Source: a virus (Duplodnaviria; Caudoviricetes). From it: DNA of 64,000 nucleotides. The stretch is taken from positions 35,893-99,892 of the IMG/VR virus record IMGVR_UViG_3300010347_003561; one strand, 5' to 3'. Of this stretch, positions 9,956 to 30,200 are shown piece after piece; the stretch's first letter is position 1; every line of letters starts with the position of its first letter. A program made the position numbers and the translations under genes. The notes below the pieces were generated by a model. That model saw only the letters and a program-made list of their open reading frames with translations. It had not been told where the DNA came from and ran no database searches.

Positions 9956-10744
9956 ATGGACATACGAGAAGCGACGGAAAGGCTCGAGGCAGCCTTTCAT
10001 AAATGGATAGATTCCGACGATTTCAGGAAAATCGAGAAGTGCATGAGACTCTTCCACAACTATTCCTTCTTCAACATCGTTCTTATCCTTTTCCAGAAAC
10101 CAGACGCCACTAGAGTCGCCGGATTCAACACGTGGAAGAAACTGAACAGGTACGTGAAAAAGGGAGAGAAAGGAATAGCTATATTGGCGCCCACCACACG
10201 AAAGCGAACCGCAATCAACGACAAAGGCGATGAAGAGACAATAACATACATAAGCGGATTCAAAGCAACTTACGTCTTCGACGTCAGCCAGACCGAAGGA
10301 CAGGAATTGCCGTCCGTAAGCGAAATTCGGATAAAAGACGAATACGAAGGATTTCAAACAATCGCGCGAACCGTGAAGGATATGGGCTACGAAATACTGT
10401 TCTACGACGGAGAAAGCACCATGAAAGGCTTCACGAAGAAAGGCACCAAGGCCATCTACGTACACGAGGAAGAGACCACCGGCCAGAAGTCAAGCACGAT
10501 AGTACACGAATGGGCGCATCTCCAGCTCGGAAACGAACTGGAACGCGCCGACGAAGAGATAGTCGTACAGACCGCTTCGTACTTCATAATGGCCTCCCTC
10601 GGATTCGACACGTCCTGGTACACGGCACAGTACGTTCAGAACTGGTCGCGCAGCAAGAAATGGGCCGATGTTTCCAGACTCTTCGCCATCTCCGACAGAC
10701 TATGCAAGAAATTCCTGCAAGAATCCGAAGCGATAGCCGCATAG
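9956..10744 (+). CDS. ArdC-like ssDNA-binding protein with HExxH domain
   Basis: FHNYSFFN..LI..Q.P.AT.VAGF.TWKKL.R.VKKGEKGI.I.AP, VFDVSQTEG, VHEWAH. Confidence 0.85.
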   Translation: MDIREATERLEAAFHKWIDSDDFRKIEKCMRLFHNYSFFNIVLILFQKPDATRVAGFNTWKKLNRYVKKGEKGIAILAPTTRKRTAINDKGDEETITYISGFKATYVFDVSQTEGQELPSVSEIRIKDEYEGFQTIARTVKDMGYEILFYDGESTMKGFTKKGTKAIYVHEEETTGQKSSTIVHEWAHLQLGNELERADEEIVVQTASYFIMASLGFDTSWYTAQYVQNWSRSKKWADVSRLFAISDRLCKKFLQESEAIAA

Positions 10745-12495: not shown

Positions 12496-13872
12496 TTGCC
12501 CCTCGAAGAGGGAGCTGCGAATGTGATGAGAACGAACAGAGTATCGGTTAATCCGAAAGATTTCGACACGGCACCGACCACTTACGAAGGCGGAAAGGCC
12601 GCCGTCGTCGGTGTTTACGAACAGCTCAGGAGAAGCGTGCTTGCCTGTCTCCTGTGGGAAAACACTTTCTACGAATCCGGTGTGGAGATAACCGAGAGGA
12701 TAAAGAACCTCGTCGGTTTGAACGACACCGAATCGGTTGCAGACCTCGCCGTCGAAGCGAGAAAAACGATGAACCTGCGCCATGTGCCGCTATGGCTCAT
12801 CGTGTCGATGCTGGCCGAAAAAAGGCACAGAGCCGCAGTCGGCAACCTGATTCCGCGCGTCATAAGCAGACCCGACGAGATGGGGGAGTTGCTCTCCCTC
12901 TACTGGAAGAACTCGGGCAAGGTACCGCTGGCCAACCAGTTGAAGAAGGGACTGTCGAAATGCTTCGACCTCTTCGGCGAATATTCTTTCGCCAAGAACG
13001 ATTCGAAGAAAAGCGCCGTAAGACTTCGCGACGTGATGTTCCTAACACACCCGAAGCCGAAAACCAAGGAAAAGGAAGAACTTTTCAAAAGAATAGCCAA
13101 CGACGAGATGGAGACTCCCGATACATGGGAAGTCGCACTGTCATCGGGCGCCAGCAAGAGAGAAACTTTCGAGAGGCTCATGAAGGAGAAGAAACTCGGC
13201 GCGCTCGCCTTCCTCAGAAACTTGAGAAACATGAAGGAATCCGGAGTGAGCGAGGAACTCGTGAAAGAATATTTCTCGACGGTAGATTTCTCGAAGGTCT
13301 TCCCGTTCCGCTTCATCTCGGCGGCGAATGCTGTGCCGGAATGGAAGAAATTCATAGAACCGGCCATGCTCGAGAGGGCAAGAAAGATGGAGAAACTGTC
13401 CGGAAAAACCATCGTCCTCCTCGACGTGTCGGGCTCGATGTTCAACAACGTGAGCGACAGGTCGGAACTGGACAGGATAGACATGGCCAACGGTCTCGCT
13501 ATTATCCTTCGTGAGATATGCGAGGATATCGAGATCTATACCTTTTCGGATAGAATCGCATCGGTCAAGCCGAACCGCGGCTTTGAACTGGCCCATTCTA
13601 TAAGAACATCGCAGGAACACAGAAGCACGTACCTCGGCAAGGCGATAAGCTGGCTCAACATCAACTCGCGGGCGGACAGACTCGTCATCTTGACGGACGA
13701 ACAGGCCGGCGACAACGTACCGGCACCGAAATTCGAAAAACCGTATATAATTGATGTCGCATCGTACAGGTACGGAGTTGATTACGATAACTACGTGCAT
13801 ATAAACGGTTTCTCGGAGGCCGTCGTGCTTTACCTGATCGAATACGAGAAATTTATGCGCAACGCGGGGTAG
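12496..13872 (+). CDS. rsr: Ro60/Rsr TROVE-domain RNA-binding protein with vWA domain (start may be ATG 12526)
   Basis: LWENTFYESG, RPDE, LKKGL..F..F.EY..AK, LRDVMFLTHPKP, TWEV.LS, AFLRNLRN, PFRF, vWA MIDAS DVSGSM, LTDEQ. Confidence 0.92.
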   Translation: MPLEEGAANVMRTNRVSVNPKDFDTAPTTYEGGKAAVVGVYEQLRRSVLACLLWENTFYESGVEITERIKNLVGLNDTESVADLAVEARKTMNLRHVPLWLIVSMLAEKRHRAAVGNLIPRVISRPDEMGELLSLYWKNSGKVPLANQLKKGLSKCFDLFGEYSFAKNDSKKSAVRLRDVMFLTHPKPKTKEKEELFKRIANDEMETPDTWEVALSSGASKRETFERLMKEKKLGALAFLRNLRNMKESGVSEELVKEYFSTVDFSKVFPFRFISAANAVPEWKKFIEPAMLERARKMEKLSGKTIVLLDVSGSMFNNVSDRSELDRIDMANGLAIILREICEDIEIYTFSDRIASVKPNRGFELAHSIRTSQEHRSTYLGKAISWLNINSRADRLVILTDEQAGDNVPAPKFEKPYIIDVASYRYGVDYDNYVHINGFSEAVVLYLIEYEKFMRNAG

Positions 13873-14098: not shown

Positions 14099-14223
14099 GA
14101 TGTGGTTGCGAAAGATACGGTTACTTCCTACTTCTTAGGAGAGACGCGGGTTCGAATCCCGTCGCATTGCGTAGTTTAGCGGCCTAAAACACTTCGTTTA
14201 CTGTATCGAATGTTCACCATATC
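14099..14223 (+). ncRNA. YrlA-like Y RNA unit 3 with permuted tRNA-like domain
   Basis: GATGTGG/CCATATC and GATACGG/CTGTATC stems enclosing T arm GCGGG-TTCGAAT-CCCGT, short closed acceptor-like hairpin CGCATTGCG, D arm GTTT-AGCGGCCTA-AAAC. Confidence 0.85.
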
Positions 14224-14237
14224 GTCGATTGCTAAAA

Positions 14238-14364
14238 TACGGTAGCGTACGAAACGGTTCCATCGAATTGTAATCGAGAGGTTGCGGGTTCGAGTCCCGC
14301 CCGGCATATTGCCGGTAGCTCAATCGGCAGAGCGCTAAAGCTCCGTTTCAAAATGTTCTCCGTA
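14238..14364 (+). ncRNA. YrlA-like Y RNA unit 4 with permuted tRNA-like domain
   Basis: TACGG/CCGTA and GAAACGG/CCGTTTC stems enclosing T arm GCGGG-TTCGAGT-CCCGC, closed acceptor CCGGCA-TAT-TGCCGG, D arm GCTC-AATCGGCA-GAGC. Confidence 0.88.
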
Positions 14365-14380
14365 CCAGGCAATTCGAAGA

Positions 14381-14415
14381 AAAGATCCCGCGCGAAAGTG
14401 CGGGGTCTTTTTTTT
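14381..14415 (+). terminator. intrinsic terminator closing the rsr-Y RNA unit
   Basis: AAGATCCCGCGC-GAAA-GTGCGGGGTCTT followed by a long T-run. Confidence 0.9.
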
Positions 14416-21019: not shown

Positions 21020-21123
21020 GCGCCACGCATAGCAGGATAATCGTCTCGTACCAGAGAATTATCAGTCGGTAAGTCCCTGAAAGGTAACTCCTTACGGGTC
21101 CCCGGCACCGCCGCTTGGGCGAA

Positions 21124-21169
21124 CGCTCCGCAGCCTGGCTGTGTAGCGGGTTGAAATCCCGCCGGAGCG
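21124..21169 (+). ncRNA. minimal tRNA-like element (acceptor stem, small hairpin, T-like arm)
   Basis: CGCTCCG/CGGAGCG 7-bp stem; CAGC-CTG-GCTG; GCGGG-TTGAAAT-CCCGC. Confidence 0.5.
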
Positions 21170-21196
21170 GTTAGATTCTCGAATCGAGGAGTCGCT

Positions 21197-21859
21197 ATGA
21201 GAGAAGTCGATGTTGCAAAGCCAGTCGTTGCTTACATGGAAGACTACAAATGGGACGTTTACAAGGAAGTCCCGTGCCATTCCGGCGTAGCAGATATCGT
21301 CGGAGTGTTGGACGGGCGCATCTGGATAGTAGAAACTAAAACGAGCCTGTCGGTGCAACTGATAGACCAGGCGATATCCAGAAGACAGGTGGCCCATTAC
21401 ATCTCAATAGCGGTTCCTAGACCGAATAGGTATTCGTACAGCCCGTCGATCGAGCTCGTGCTTGACCACTACGGAATTGGTCTTATAACCGTGCGCGGCG
21501 AGGAAGTGAACATCGACAAACAGGTAAAACTCTTCAGGCACGTATCGAAGGACAAACAGTCGAAGCTCCTCGCTTCGCTCAGGCCGGAGATGAAAGACAA
21601 CGAGGCCGGTTCGATAGGCGCAAAAAGATGGACGTCGTTCAAGAGATTCCGCTCGAGAGTCGTGGCACTCGTCGAAAAGAATCCCGGCATAGCCCCTCGA
21701 AAGCTCATACAGATGATGCAGCCAGATATACACTATCACACGGAAAGCACGGCCCTGCATTGTCTCGTCCATTATATACGCAAAGGAATAATAAACGAAA
21801 TAATACTCGTCAAAGAGAAAGGAAAGCTTAGACTTTTTCCATGCTCCGTGGCGGAATAG
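21197..21859 (+). CDS. PD-(D/E)xK nuclease-fold protein
   Basis: EV....ADIVG....IVETK...QA pattern; GAGGAG RBS. Confidence 0.65.
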   Translation: MREVDVAKPVVAYMEDYKWDVYKEVPCHSGVADIVGVLDGRIWIVETKTSLSVQLIDQAISRRQVAHYISIAVPRPNRYSYSPSIELVLDHYGIGLITVRGEEVNIDKQVKLFRHVSKDKQSKLLASLRPEMKDNEAGSIGAKRWTSFKRFRSRVVALVEKNPGIAPRKLIQMMQPDIHYHTESTALHCLVHYIRKGIINEIILVKEKGKLRLFPCSVAE

Positions 21860-21924: not shown

Positions 21925-22000
21925 GGGCGTGTATTTCAATGGCAAGATACTGATTCTCGCAGAGTCAGGGTAGTGGGTTCGATTCCCACCGCGCCTGCCA
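21925..22000 (+). tRNA. atypical tRNA (enlarged anticodon arm; CGC/Ala if read from the central loop; identity uncertain)
   Basis: Acceptor GGGCGTG/CGCGCCT, G73-CCA encoded, T arm GTGGG-TTCGATT-CCCAC, weak D stem, anticodon arm CTGAT-TCTCGCAGA-GTCAG. Confidence 0.75.
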
Positions 22001-29723: not shown

Positions 29724-30028
29724 GCATTTTCGAAAGGTTTTGCACACTTTTGCCGTCGCTAATAAAACGCGGAGTCGAAGTCACGGTTTTAACGTTCTCG
29801 GACCAGTCGAGCATAATAGTTGACATGCCGGCAGTCAAAAAGGTTTATTCATACCACTTCTCAAAAGATTTCAAACTCGAAGACGTTACGGTATGCAACA
29901 CGGAAACTCATGATTGCTACTGCATAGCTCCGCGCTCCCTGGCACCGCGTATTTACTTCACATCGAAGAGGGAGGCTGCGTCAACGACCCACGGCAAAAG
30001 CCGGGAGCTAGTAGCTCTTGTTGACTAG
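29720..30028 (+). CDS. hypothetical protein whose C-terminus is altered by the inserted element
   Basis: GGAGG RBS; reads ...SKREAA into the element and stops inside it. Confidence 0.65.
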   Translation: MSIFERFCTLLPSLIKRGVEVTVLTFSDQSSIIVDMPAVKKVYSYHFSKDFKLEDVTVCNTETHDCYCIAPRSLAPRIYFTSKREAASTTHGKSRELVALVD

Positions 30029-30200
30029 CCTAAGTGTTTCGGACACTACGTTACCGACAAATGTATAGGCACCGTAGGATGCGTTCCCAAGTCTTACGCT
30101 CTGCGGTTAGTGGTTAAACAGTTCTGATGGGTAGGAACAGTGCTGCTAACGAGAAACTGTCGGATAACATTGGCGATGGGAAACTTACTCCGAAAGGAGG
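29980..30200 (+). ncRNA. HEARO / IscB omegaRNA scaffold
   Basis: Ordered blocks GTCAAC..GTTGACTAGCCTAAG..CTACGTT..ATAGGCACC..GGATG..CCAAGTC..CTCTGCG..GTTAAACAG..CAGTG..AACATTGGCGATGGG..CCGAAAGGAG. Confidence 0.88.

What the first reader, a model, noticed from the sequence alone, without database searches (positions are those of the whole stretch)
14099..14364. Units 3 and 4 are circularly permuted tRNA mimics that keep an anticodon-like arm (Thr-UGU-like and Glu/Asp-like)
Seen in unit 4, 5' to 3': hairpin TCGA-ATTGTAA-TCGA (7-nt loop, U33, TGT at 14269-14271, A37), short variable segment, T arm, acceptor stem sealed by a TAT loop, TA, D arm. That is a whole cloverleaf opened between the D and anticodon arms and grafted onto the Ro-binding stem. 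Unit 3 has the same order with TCCT-ACTTCTT-AGGA, a Glu/Asp-style D arm (GTTTAGCGGCCTAAAAC) and a very short acceptor hairpin. Known: in described YrlA RNAs the Ro-binding stem takes the place of the anticodon stem. Inference: these RNAs cannot be aminoacylated but still display an anticodon-like loop, so they could be decoys for host anticodon nucleases or tRNA-targeting toxins. The two inserts look captured from different tRNAs.
Basis: partly seen in the sequence, partly recalled or inferred. Interest (0 to 1): 0.82.

Follow-up and report, generated by a model that had tools for sequence, protein, structure and literature searches.

The report
Phage Y RNAs keeping anticodon arms
Two small RNAs encoded just after a phage Ro60 gene are tRNA look-alikes that, unlike the textbook Salmonella example, keep a complete anticodon-style hairpin; the same design recurs in dozens of phages and bacteria, which changes how this known RNA family should be drawn but leaves its function open.

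Summary
Units 3 (14099-14223) and 4 (14238-14364) lie after a phage Ro60/TROVE gene. Each is a YrlA-type Y RNA: a handle stem, then hairpin, short variable loop, T arm, loop-closed acceptor stem, UA and D arm.

Unit 4's hairpin is AUCGA-AUUGUAA-UCGAG, with U33, UGU at 14269-14271, A37 and A38. Unit 3's loop, ACUUCUU, is degenerate (C33, U37).

In 49-51 distinct homologues the hairpin has a 5-bp covarying stem and a 7-nt loop:
- U33 in 88%, a purine at 37 in 90%, A38 in 88%.
- 28 different triplets at 34-36.
- G37 only after G36.
- Nucleotides 26 and 44 covary.

So the cloverleaf is opened at 26/27, not in the anticodon loop. Re-opened in silico at the acceptor loop, 48 of 49 are called tRNAs by ARAGORN.

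The hairpin itself is already published as the "V" (variable) arm (Chen 2014). Reading it as an anticodon arm appears in none of the papers I could read. This scan noted the same thing earlier on another phage.

"Captured from different tRNAs" is partly supported. Unit 3 belongs to a Glu-type module class enriched in NUC triplets. Unit 4 belongs to an old Thr-like YrlA lineage and is not a recent capture.

The decoy function is untested.

The parts
12496..13872 (+). Ro60/TROVE + vWA protein gene (458 aa)
   Evidence: Pfam TROVE 7e-12 and Ro60 vWA. PHROG 850 RNA-binding protein 6.5e-41. Homologue of Thermus phage phiLo Ro60, PDB 9KOP/9L5Y, E 2.6e-31.
14099..14223 (+). Unit 3: Y RNA with a Glu-type tRNA-like module. 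Outer stem 14099-14106/14216-14223; closing stem 14114-14121/14200-14207.
   Evidence: Fold (z -2.28); closing stem and linkers; partial YrlA model match of 20.7 bits.
14125..14141 (+). Unit 3 anticodon-like arm UUCCU-ACUUCUU-AGGAG; UUC at 14132-14134; degenerate loop frame (C33, U37, U38)
   Evidence: Direct reading. The homologous arm in Xanthomonas phage Olaya is UUCCU-AUCUCAA-AGGGG, with a canonical frame. ARAGORN calls the re-opened module tRNA-Glu(ttc).
14142..14190 (+). Unit 3 core: 4-nt variable loop AGAC, T arm 14146-14162, 3-bp closed acceptor hairpin 14163-14171, UA, D arm 14174-14190 (loop AGCGGCCUA)
   Evidence: A G15:C48 Levitt pair is possible.
14238..14364 (+). Unit 4: YrlA-type Y RNA. 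Outer stem 14238-14242/14360-14364; closing stem 14251-14257/14343-14349.
   Evidence: Rfam YrlA 48.0 bits, E 1.5e-9; fold z -3.05.
14262..14278 (+). Unit 4 anticodon-like arm AUCGA-AUUGUAA-UCGAG (A32, U33, UGU 14269-14271, A37, A38)
   Evidence: Nearest relatives L016 and L048 carry the same stem and a UGU loop. ARAGORN calls the re-opened module tRNA-Thr(tgt).
14279..14334 (+). Unit 4 core: variable loop AGGUU, T arm 14284-14300, closed acceptor hairpin CCGGCA-UAU-UGCCGG 14301-14315, UA, D arm 14318-14333, G26 at 14334
   Evidence: An A15:U48 Levitt pair and a G26/A44 pair fit the family covariation.
14384..14415 (+). Intrinsic terminator closing the four-unit array (GAUCCCGCGCGAAAGUGCGGGGUC followed by U8)
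   Evidence: Direct reading. Aligned as the terminator hairpin by several Rfam leader models. The pattern scan listed only its minus-strand mirror.

Best explanation
Units 3 and 4 are Y RNAs of the YrlA class made for the phage's own Ro60 ring protein.

Shown (anatomy):
- Each RNA has a terminal handle stem. Inside it sits a whole class-I tRNA cloverleaf whose acceptor end is closed by a loop.
- The chain is opened between nucleotides 26 and 27, so the anticodon arm is kept.
- This differs from the Salmonella YrlA crystal form, where the handle replaces the anticodon loop.
- The loop frame (pyrimidine or A at 32, U33, purine 37, A38) is conserved across homologues. The triplet changes about five times faster than the rest of the RNA.

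Inferred from Ro60 precedents:
- The handle sits on Ro60.
- The tRNA-shaped module is the effector end. It engages a protein that recognises tRNA shape. By precedent this is host PNPase; other candidates are tRNA-modifying or tRNA-cleaving enzymes.
- The module thereby tethers that protein to Ro60 or titrates it.

Inferred (origin): the modules descend from at least two tRNA types, Thr-like for unit 4 and Glu-like for unit 3.
For: Context: a Ro60 gene lies immediately upstream on the same strand.

Family: YrlA model match.

Homologues (121 distinct cores from 175 loci):
- 51 have the 5-bp / 7-nt hairpin placed 4-6 nt before the T arm; 49 of them sit in a clear Y-RNA context.
- Loop: U33 in 45/51, purine 37 in 46/51, A38 in 45/51, 28 different triplets, and G37 only with G36 (9 of 9; Fisher 2e-7).
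- Stem pairs 29-41, 30-40 and 31-39 show compensatory changes in 13, 16 and 20 of 42 sequences. 94.8% of cells are paired, against 37-55% when the partner strand is slid.
- Nucleotides 26 and 44 covary: G/A 28, A/U 11, mixed 7; p 3e-5.
- 15/48 is G:C in 38 and A:U in 8.
- Linkers: about 3 nt from handle to hairpin, but 8-10 nt from D stem to handle, where a tRNA has one nucleotide.
- 48 of 49 re-opened modules are called tRNAs with the anticodon in this loop.
- Triplet positions differ in 54% of comparisons among near-identical pairs, against 11% outside the loop.

Precedents:
- phiLo Ro60 binds its Y-like RNAs and host PNPase (PMC12135203).
- Bas63 Ro60-like gp130 counters the ppl defence system (PMC11482910).
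Against: - No transcript, binding, probing or modification data exist for these RNAs.
- Which helix stacks under the D stem is not known without a 3-D structure.
- Sequences are related, so the p-values are overstated. I also selected hairpins by pairing, though not by loop content.
- About a quarter to a third of homologues lack the hairpin. These are the handle-replaces-loop form or minimal forms, so the arm is dispensable for some Ro60 partners.
- Unit 3's loop has lost U33 and purine 37.
- Both units score below Rfam's YrlA threshold.
Confidence: 0.62

Rival explanations
1. Anticodon-nuclease decoy or bait. The displayed anticodon loops draw host tRNA-cleaving defence or toxin enzymes away from real tRNAs, or report their activity. 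Arrays carry several different anticodons to cover several targets.
For: - Phage context, with an ArdC-like anti-restriction gene 1.7 kb upstream.
- The triplet turns over about five times faster than the rest of the RNA while the frame is kept.
- L023 and L031 differ at only 2 of 126 positions outside the loop, yet GUU-A became GUG-G.
- The 36/37 coupling mirrors the rules of real anticodon loops.
- Arrays combine different triplets.
- A Ro60-like phage protein counters a defence system (PMC11482910).
Against: - No nuclease target is known.
- No RNA-repair ligase is present in this record.
- The same design occurs in many Acidobacteriota MAG loci.
- Forms without the arm are common.
- Fast triplet change is equally expected from plain lack of constraint.
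- In Glu-type modules the triplet is still mostly NUC. That looks like slow decay from an ancestor rather than retargeting.
- A decoy would need to be abundant relative to tRNA.
Confidence: 0.2
2. Structural relic. The anticodon arm is simply inherited from the tRNA(s) that gave rise to the module. It is kept because it completes a stable, nuclease-resistant L-shape. The U-turn frame is kept for loop stability or because host tRNA-modifying enzymes act on it. The triplet is free.
For: - The triplet is nearly unconstrained (28 triplets in 51 sequences).
- Class-II isotype triplets (Leu, Ser, Tyr) sit on class-I bodies, so triplet and body are uncoupled.
- Chen 2014 proposed nuclease protection by the tRNA fold.
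- Unit 3 tolerates a degenerate loop.
Against: - The 36/37 coupling (G37 only after G36; U36 followed by A37 in 29 of 31) and the coupled double change between L023 and L031 ask for more than loop stability.
- Forms without the arm fold too.
Confidence: 0.3
3. Published reading. The hairpin is a tRNA variable ('V') arm, the handle-proximal stem is the anticodon stem, and the loop's likeness to an anticodon loop is coincidental.
For: Chen 2014 drew it this way for YrlA (PMC4201824). The Salmonella crystal structure shows the handle continuing the anticodon stem (10.1101/312249).
Against: - Long variable arms, as I know them, have short loops and 1-2 nt before the T stem. Here the loop is 7 nt and a standard 5-nt AGGUC follows.
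- 8-10 unpaired nucleotides separate the D stem from the handle.
- 26/44 covariation.
- U33 / purine 37 / A38 conservation.
- The Rfam tRNA model and ARAGORN both place the hairpin as the anticodon arm.
Confidence: 0.1
4. Precursor of a working (split or permuted) tRNA. The acceptor loop is cut by RNase P or RNase Z, CCA is added, and the RNA is charged and decodes.
For: M. smegmatis YrlA is cut by RNase P and receives CCA (PMC4201824). The modules have every tRNA arm.
Against: - Acceptor hairpins are closed by tight loops. Unit 4 has 6 bp with UAU; unit 3 has 3 bp. Many relatives use UUCG, GCAA or GAAA tetraloops.
- Class-II triplets sit on class-I bodies.
- Unnatural A34 triplets (AUU, AUG, AGU) occur.
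- A bulky handle sits at position 26/27.
Confidence: 0.03

Closest known systems
YrlA (Y RNA-like A; Rfam RF02553; Chen et al. 2014, PMC4201824; Salmonella structure 6CU1, Wang et al. 2018, 10.1101/312249)
   Same: - Encoded next to Ro60 on the same strand.
- A handle stem carrying the YUAY motif.
- The order T arm, closed acceptor-like hairpin, UA, D arm, with the tRNA-invariant nucleotides.
- Levitt-pair covariation.
- A stem-loop before the T arm, published as 'V'.
   Different: - In units 3 and 4, and in about 40% of the relatives examined, the pre-T hairpin has anticodon-arm dimensions and loop frame.
- The handle joins at position 26/27, not in place of the anticodon loop.
- Scores are below the Rfam threshold (48 and 20.7 bits against 69).
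- Unit 3 has a Glu-type D arm and a 4-nt variable loop, unlike the near-invariant YrlA D arm.
Thermus phage phiLo Ro60 with Yrl1/Yrl2 (PMC12135203; PDB 9KOP, 9L5Y)
   Same: A phage-encoded Ro60 homologue (E 2.6e-31 to this ORF) with several adjacent Y-like RNAs. Binding to the RNAs and to host PNPase was shown experimentally.
   Different: - The paper never uses the words 'tRNA-like' or 'anticodon', so no such module is described for Yrl1 or Yrl2.
- Their RNAs lie upstream of Ro60. Here the array lies downstream.
Mycobacteriophage Bxz1/ET08-type YrlA (Chen et al. 2014)
   Same: Bxz1's YrlA lies upstream of gp220 'Ro-like RNA binding protein'. It reads CUC-AUUGCAA-GAG AGGUC before the T arm, which is the same loop frame (U33, A37, A38).
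   Different: Its stem is shorter (3 bp). The published drawing of its relative ET08 labels this position as the V arm.
Circularly permuted tRNA genes of Cyanidioschyzon merolae; tmRNA and viral tRNA-like structures
   Same: tRNA parts in rotated order, or a tRNA-shaped domain used outside decoding.
   Different: Those are processed to free, chargeable acceptor ends. Here the acceptor end is sealed and the ends form a Ro60 handle. (Comparison from my own knowledge; not tested.)

Membership tests
YrlA / Ro60-associated Y RNA | Encoded within about 4 kb of a Ro60/TROVE gene, on the same strand (criterion of Chen 2014) | tested here: met
   Units 3 and 4 start 227 and 366 nt after the stop codon of the TROVE ORF 12496-13872, on the + strand.
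YrlA / Ro60-associated Y RNA | Score at or above the Rfam RF02553 gathering threshold (69 bits) | tested here: not met
   48.0 bits for unit 4 and 20.7 bits for unit 3. The model's innermost stem is not formed. Accepted phage relatives also fall below the threshold: Bxz1 32.5, Olaya 50, CcrColossus 42.3 bits.
YrlA / Ro60-associated Y RNA | Order T arm, closed acceptor-like hairpin, UA, D arm, with tRNA-invariant nucleotides and a 15:48 Levitt pair | tested here: met
   Unit 4 has A15:U48 and unit 3 has G15:C48. Family counts are G:C 38 and A:U 8.
YrlA / Ro60-associated Y RNA | 5' Ro-binding motif GNCGAA(N)G and the YUAY motif before the 'V' region | tested here: inconclusive
   Unit 3 has UGCGAAAG and UUAC. 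Unit 4 has AGCGUACG and UUCC. Relatives read GGYGWAGA followed by GKUWC. These are close but not exact matches.
YrlA / Ro60-associated Y RNA | Bound by Ro60; modified by TruB and DusA | not testable with these tools
   Needs immunoprecipitation and modification mapping.
Functional tRNA | Free paired 5'/3' acceptor ends with a 3' CCA or a processing site | tested here: not met
   The acceptor is sealed by a 3-nt loop in both units. ARAGORN finds no tRNA here in the native sequence.
Functional tRNA | Anticodon arm: 5-bp stem, 7-nt loop, U33, purine 37 | tested here: met
   Unit 4 meets it (4 bp plus an A.G pair; U33; A37). Unit 3 meets the dimensions but not U33 or purine 37.
Class-II tRNA long variable arm (the published 'V' reading) | Short-looped stem emerging between the anticodon stem and the T stem, 1-2 nt before the T stem, with one nucleotide (26) between the D and anticodon stems (from my knowledge of tRNA structure) | tested here: not met
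   The loop is 7 nt. 4-5 nt lie between the hairpin and the T stem. 8-10 nt lie between the D stem and the handle. 26/44 covariation also argues against it.

The most novel reading that the evidence does not exclude
Phage (and some bacterial) Ro60 particles carry panels of sealed tRNA mimics that display real anticodon loops. Their triplets are retargeted quickly while the loop frame and the 36/37 rule are kept. On this reading they act as isotype-specific baits for tRNA-directed immune nucleases or modification enzymes and hand them to Ro60 and its exonuclease partner. That would be a counter-defence principle not yet described.
Probability: 0.15. Interest if true: 0.85.

Novelty: new variant of a known kind. 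Interest (0 to 1): 0.6.

Why it matters
YrlA is described in print as a tRNA mimic that lacks an anticodon loop, and its pre-T stem-loop is drawn as a variable arm. If the anticodon-arm reading is right:
- A large share of phage and bacterial YrlA RNAs are complete cloverleaves opened at position 26/27.
- The range of tRNA-recognising partners they could engage widens to t6A, m1G37, queuosine and i6A enzymes, anticodon nucleases and PNPase.
- It explains why tRNA finders miscall their 5' halves as tRNA genes in phage records.
- It gives cultured systems in which to test what the tRNA module of a Y RNA is for: Xanthomonas phage Olaya, CcrColossus and Bxz1.

Tried and rejected
- Rfam at gathering threshold found no YrlA in the window. 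Only the E-value mode did.
- The supplementary alignments of Chen 2014 are not held. The 2016 RNA-repair paper and the 2020 Annual Review on bacterial Ro60 are not held either. I therefore cannot exclude that the anticodon-arm reading is printed there.
- Two pattern scans of viral contigs for a T-loop followed by a Glu-type D arm returned mostly ordinary tandem tRNA genes. Only hits with a closed acceptor hairpin and the Y-RNA motif were used.
- RtcB and Rnl2 RNA ligases are absent from the 99.9-kb record. The record is estimated 65% complete, so this is weak.
- 'Recent capture of a host tRNA-Thr' for unit 4 was rejected. Its body is closer to other YrlA modules than to any real tRNA collected.
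- For unit 3 the same comparison was ambiguous: Asp 22, Val 19 and Glu 18 against the best YrlA at 22. That tRNA set was small (176 ARAGORN-called tRNAs).
- Filtering out ARAGORN-called tRNAs was abandoned, because ARAGORN calls YrlA 5' halves as tRNAs.

Full report
**What is in the window.** ORF 12496-13872 (+) is a Ro60 homologue.
- Pfam: TROVE 7e-12 plus the Ro60 vWA domain.
- PHROG 850, 'RNA-binding protein'.
- E 2.6e-31 to the solved Ro60 of Thermus phage phiLo, PDB 9KOP/9L5Y.

The record is an IMG/VR phage contig of 99,892 bases, estimated 65% complete. The 585 non-coding bases after the gene hold four stem-closed units and end in an intrinsic terminator at about 14384-14415. The finding concerns units 3 and 4.

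**Check of the observation.**
- Unit 4 folds, in both the minimum-energy and centroid structures, into a bulged handle. The handle encloses a hairpin (UCGA-AUUGUAA-UCGA), a T arm, a closed acceptor hairpin and a D arm. z = -3.05, and none of 200 shuffles folds as well.
- Unit 3 folds likewise (z = -2.28). Its hairpin prefers 6 bp with a 5-nt loop.
- Rfam's YrlA model matches unit 4 at 48.0 bits (E 1.5e-9; threshold 69) and part of unit 3 at 20.7 bits.
- In the unit 4 alignment the model's innermost stem, the 'anticodon stem' of canonical YrlA, is marked as not pairing.
- Rfam's tRNA model aligns 14240-14303 with the hairpin as the anticodon arm.

**What was already known.**
- Chen et al. [quoted passage not shown] They call it V, equate it with the tRNA variable arm, and note a conserved YUAY that begins the V loop.
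- Wang et al. 2018 (10.1101/312249) state that Salmonella YrlA 'lacks the anticodon loop' and that the handle continues the anticodon stem.

The hairpin as such is therefore not new. Only the claim that it is an anticodon arm would be.

**Homologues.** Ro60-guided searches gave 94 phage loci. They also gave 80 genome loci, mostly Acidobacteriota MAGs. A simple finder for T arm, closed hairpin, UA and D arm gave 121 distinct cores. Three layouts occur:
- **Type I.** A 5-bp, 7-nt hairpin lies 4-6 nt before the T arm. There are 51 strict cases, 49 of them with the GKUWC-UUC Y-RNA motif just upstream.
- **Type II.** The strand before the variable loop pairs with a strand after the D arm. This is the published topology, in which the handle replaces the anticodon loop.
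- **Minimal forms**, with neither feature.

**Evidence that the type I hairpin is an anticodon arm.**
1. *Loop frame.* Position 32 is C in 37, A in 10 and U in 4. Position 33 is U in 45 of 51. Position 37 is a purine in 46 of 51. Position 38 is A in 45 of 51. Positions 34-36 show 28 different triplets. Loop content played no part in selecting the sequences.
2. *Coupling of 36 and 37.* G37 occurs only after G36 (9 of 9; Fisher 2e-7). U36 is followed by A37 in 29 of 31. From my knowledge of tRNA biology, these are the contexts of m1G37 (TrmD) and t6A37.
3. *Stem covariation.* Pairs 29-41, 30-40 and 31-39 change on both sides in 13, 16 and 20 of 42 sequences. 94.8% of cells are paired, against 37-55% when the partner strand is slid. 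Selection for pairing inflates the percentage paired, but not the number of compensatory changes.
4. *Variable loop.* What follows the hairpin is a standard 5-nt variable loop (AGGUC). 15:48 covaries: G:C 38, A:U 8.
5. *The 26/44 pair.* The base after the D stem (26) covaries with the base after the hairpin (44): G/A 28, A/U 11, mixed 7. p = 3e-5 overall and 5e-4 within phages alone. This is expected if the hairpin stacks under the D stem as in tRNA. The V-arm reading gives no reason for it.
6. *Linkers.* The handle joins through about 3 nt on the 5' side. On the 3' side, 8-10 unpaired nucleotides separate the D stem from the handle, where a tRNA has one.
7. *tRNA finders.* Cut open at the acceptor loop in silico, 48 of 49 modules are called class-I tRNAs by ARAGORN with the anticodon in this loop. 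The 49th differs only by register. Unit 4 is called Thr(tgt) and unit 3 Glu(ttc). This step is partly circular, because I had selected for the hairpin.

The published mycobacteriophage case shows the same frame. Bxz1's YrlA, upstream of gp220 'Ro-like RNA binding protein', reads CUC-AUUGCAA-GAG AGGUC.

**Origin of the two modules.**
- *Unit 4.* It is far closer to other YrlA modules than to any real tRNA collected. It scores 42 and 38 with L016 and L048, which share its stem and UGU loop. The best real tRNAs are Thr(cgt) at 29 and Thr(tgt) at 23. It is therefore a member of an old, Thr-like YrlA lineage, not a recent capture.
- *Isotype mismatch.* Triplets of class-II isotypes (Leu, Ser, Tyr) and unnatural A34 triplets sit on the same class-I body. 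In this lineage the triplet has therefore drifted away from the body.
- *Unit 3.* It belongs to a second module class with a 4-nt variable loop and a Glu-type D arm.
- *Olaya homologue.* Xanthomonas phage Olaya has a homologous unit, UUCCU-AUCUCAA-AGGGG UGAC with D arm GUCUAGUGGCUUAGGAC. It sits beside an Asn-type unit in a four-unit array upstream of Ro60.
- *Enrichment.* Of about 17 Glu-type modules in a Y-RNA context, 9 carry NUC triplets: CUC 3, UUC 3, GUC 2, AUC 1. About one would be expected by chance (p 2e-7).
- *Unit 3's loop.* U33 is kept in all of these modules except unit 3. Unit 3's loop is therefore a decayed copy.
- *CcrColossus.* It also has units with Leu-type class-II D arms.

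'Different tRNA ancestries' is therefore supported at the level of module classes.

**Rate of change.** I compared 28 pairs that are at least 85% identical outside the loop. These pairs are not independent, and most come from one Acidobacteriota group.
- Triplet positions differ in 54% of comparisons, frame positions in 18%, and the rest of the RNA in 11%.
- L023 and L031 differ at 2 of 126 positions outside the loop. Inside it, GUU-A became GUG-G, a coupled change at 36 and 37.
- This fits either lack of constraint on 34-36 or retargeting. It cannot separate the two.

**How it most likely works.**
- *Shown:* the anatomy above and the Ro60 context.
- *Inferred from precedent:* the handle binds Ro60 and the tRNA-shaped module is the effector end.
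- *Precedents:* Ro60 with Y RNA tethers PNPase in Deinococcus and Salmonella (PMC4201824). The phage phiLo Ro60 and its Y-like RNAs form complexes with host PNPase (PMC12135203). A Ro60-like protein of phage Bas63 counters the ppl defence system (PMC11482910).
- *The anticodon arm:* I think it makes the module a fuller tRNA look-alike for a partner that reads tRNA shape, including the anticodon-loop frame. Whether that partner is a nuclease to be decoyed is open.
- *Local context:* it offers only an ArdC-like anti-restriction gene at 9956-10744. No RtcB or Rnl2 ligase is present.

**Novelty and limits.**
- The units are YrlA-class Y RNAs, a known kind.
- The anticodon-arm topology, the conserved loop frame with a free triplet, the 26/44 covariation and the Glu-type module class are not in any paper I could read. 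Two key reviews are not held.
- This scan had already noted 'a YrlA-like permuted tRNA that keeps an anticodon-like arm' on another phage (e1-5676674).
- All statistics ignore phylogenetic relatedness.
- No expression or binding data exist for this phage.

Noticed in passing
L298:628-695 (Caulobacter phage CcrColossus NC_019406.1, 109217-109284): The record's annotated 'tRNA-Gln' (D866_gt024) is the 5' half of a YrlA-type Y RNA: handle strand, then hairpin UUCGC-AUCUGGA-GCGGG, AGGUC and T arm. A long closed acceptor hairpin and a D arm follow it. It lies in an array of at least five units upstream of the Ro60 gene.
   Followed up: partly
Acidobacteriota MAG loci among L095-L174: ARAGORN calls YrlA 5' halves as tRNAs. 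One example is 'tRNA-Leu(cag)', whose sequence begins with the GGUGGUGAAGA handle. Such false tRNA calls are probably common in phage and MAG annotations.
   Followed up: partly
L298 about 1165-1260 and 1328-1420 (CcrColossus): Two further Y-RNA units carry class-II, Leu-type D arms (GCGGAGUGGCCAAACGC and GCGGAAUUGGUAGACGC). One of them has a long variable arm. The Ro60 handle therefore hosts mimics of several tRNA classes.
   Followed up: no
window 14258-14270 and 14370-14382: A 13-nt inverted repeat (85% complementary) links the 5' side of unit 4's anticodon-like arm to the stretch just before the terminator. It may be an alternative pairing or chance, since TTCGAA is a palindrome.
   Followed up: no
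window 21116-21237: A weak match to the YrlA model (20.3 bits, E 0.0046 in the record), about 700 nt upstream of the window's only tRNA gene, Ala(CGC) at 21925-22000.
   Followed up: no
window 29980-30188: A full-length HEARO RNA (Rfam RF02033; 145.7 bits against a threshold of 83). This is the RNA of IS605/IscB-type elements.
   Followed up: no
type II loci, e.g. L098:1453, L103:2335, L174:2311: In the handle-replaces-loop form, the strand equivalent to 39-43 is usually preceded by UAA (…UUC-UUAA-UCCGA…). This looks like a remnant of anticodon-loop positions 36-38. It hints that the two topologies interconvert by swapping which strand pairs with 39-43.
   Followed up: partly
L056:2297 and L368:12189: Loop-length variants of the anticodon-like arm: an 8-nt loop (AUGAUAAA) and a 6-nt loop (CUUCAA).
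   Followed up: no
window 9956-10744: An ArdC-like anti-restriction protein fused to a metallopeptidase domain lies 1.7 kb upstream of Ro60. Pfam gives ArdcN 1.2e-11, plus DUF6782 and M78; PHROG 7245 is 'anti-restriction protein'.
   Followed up: partly
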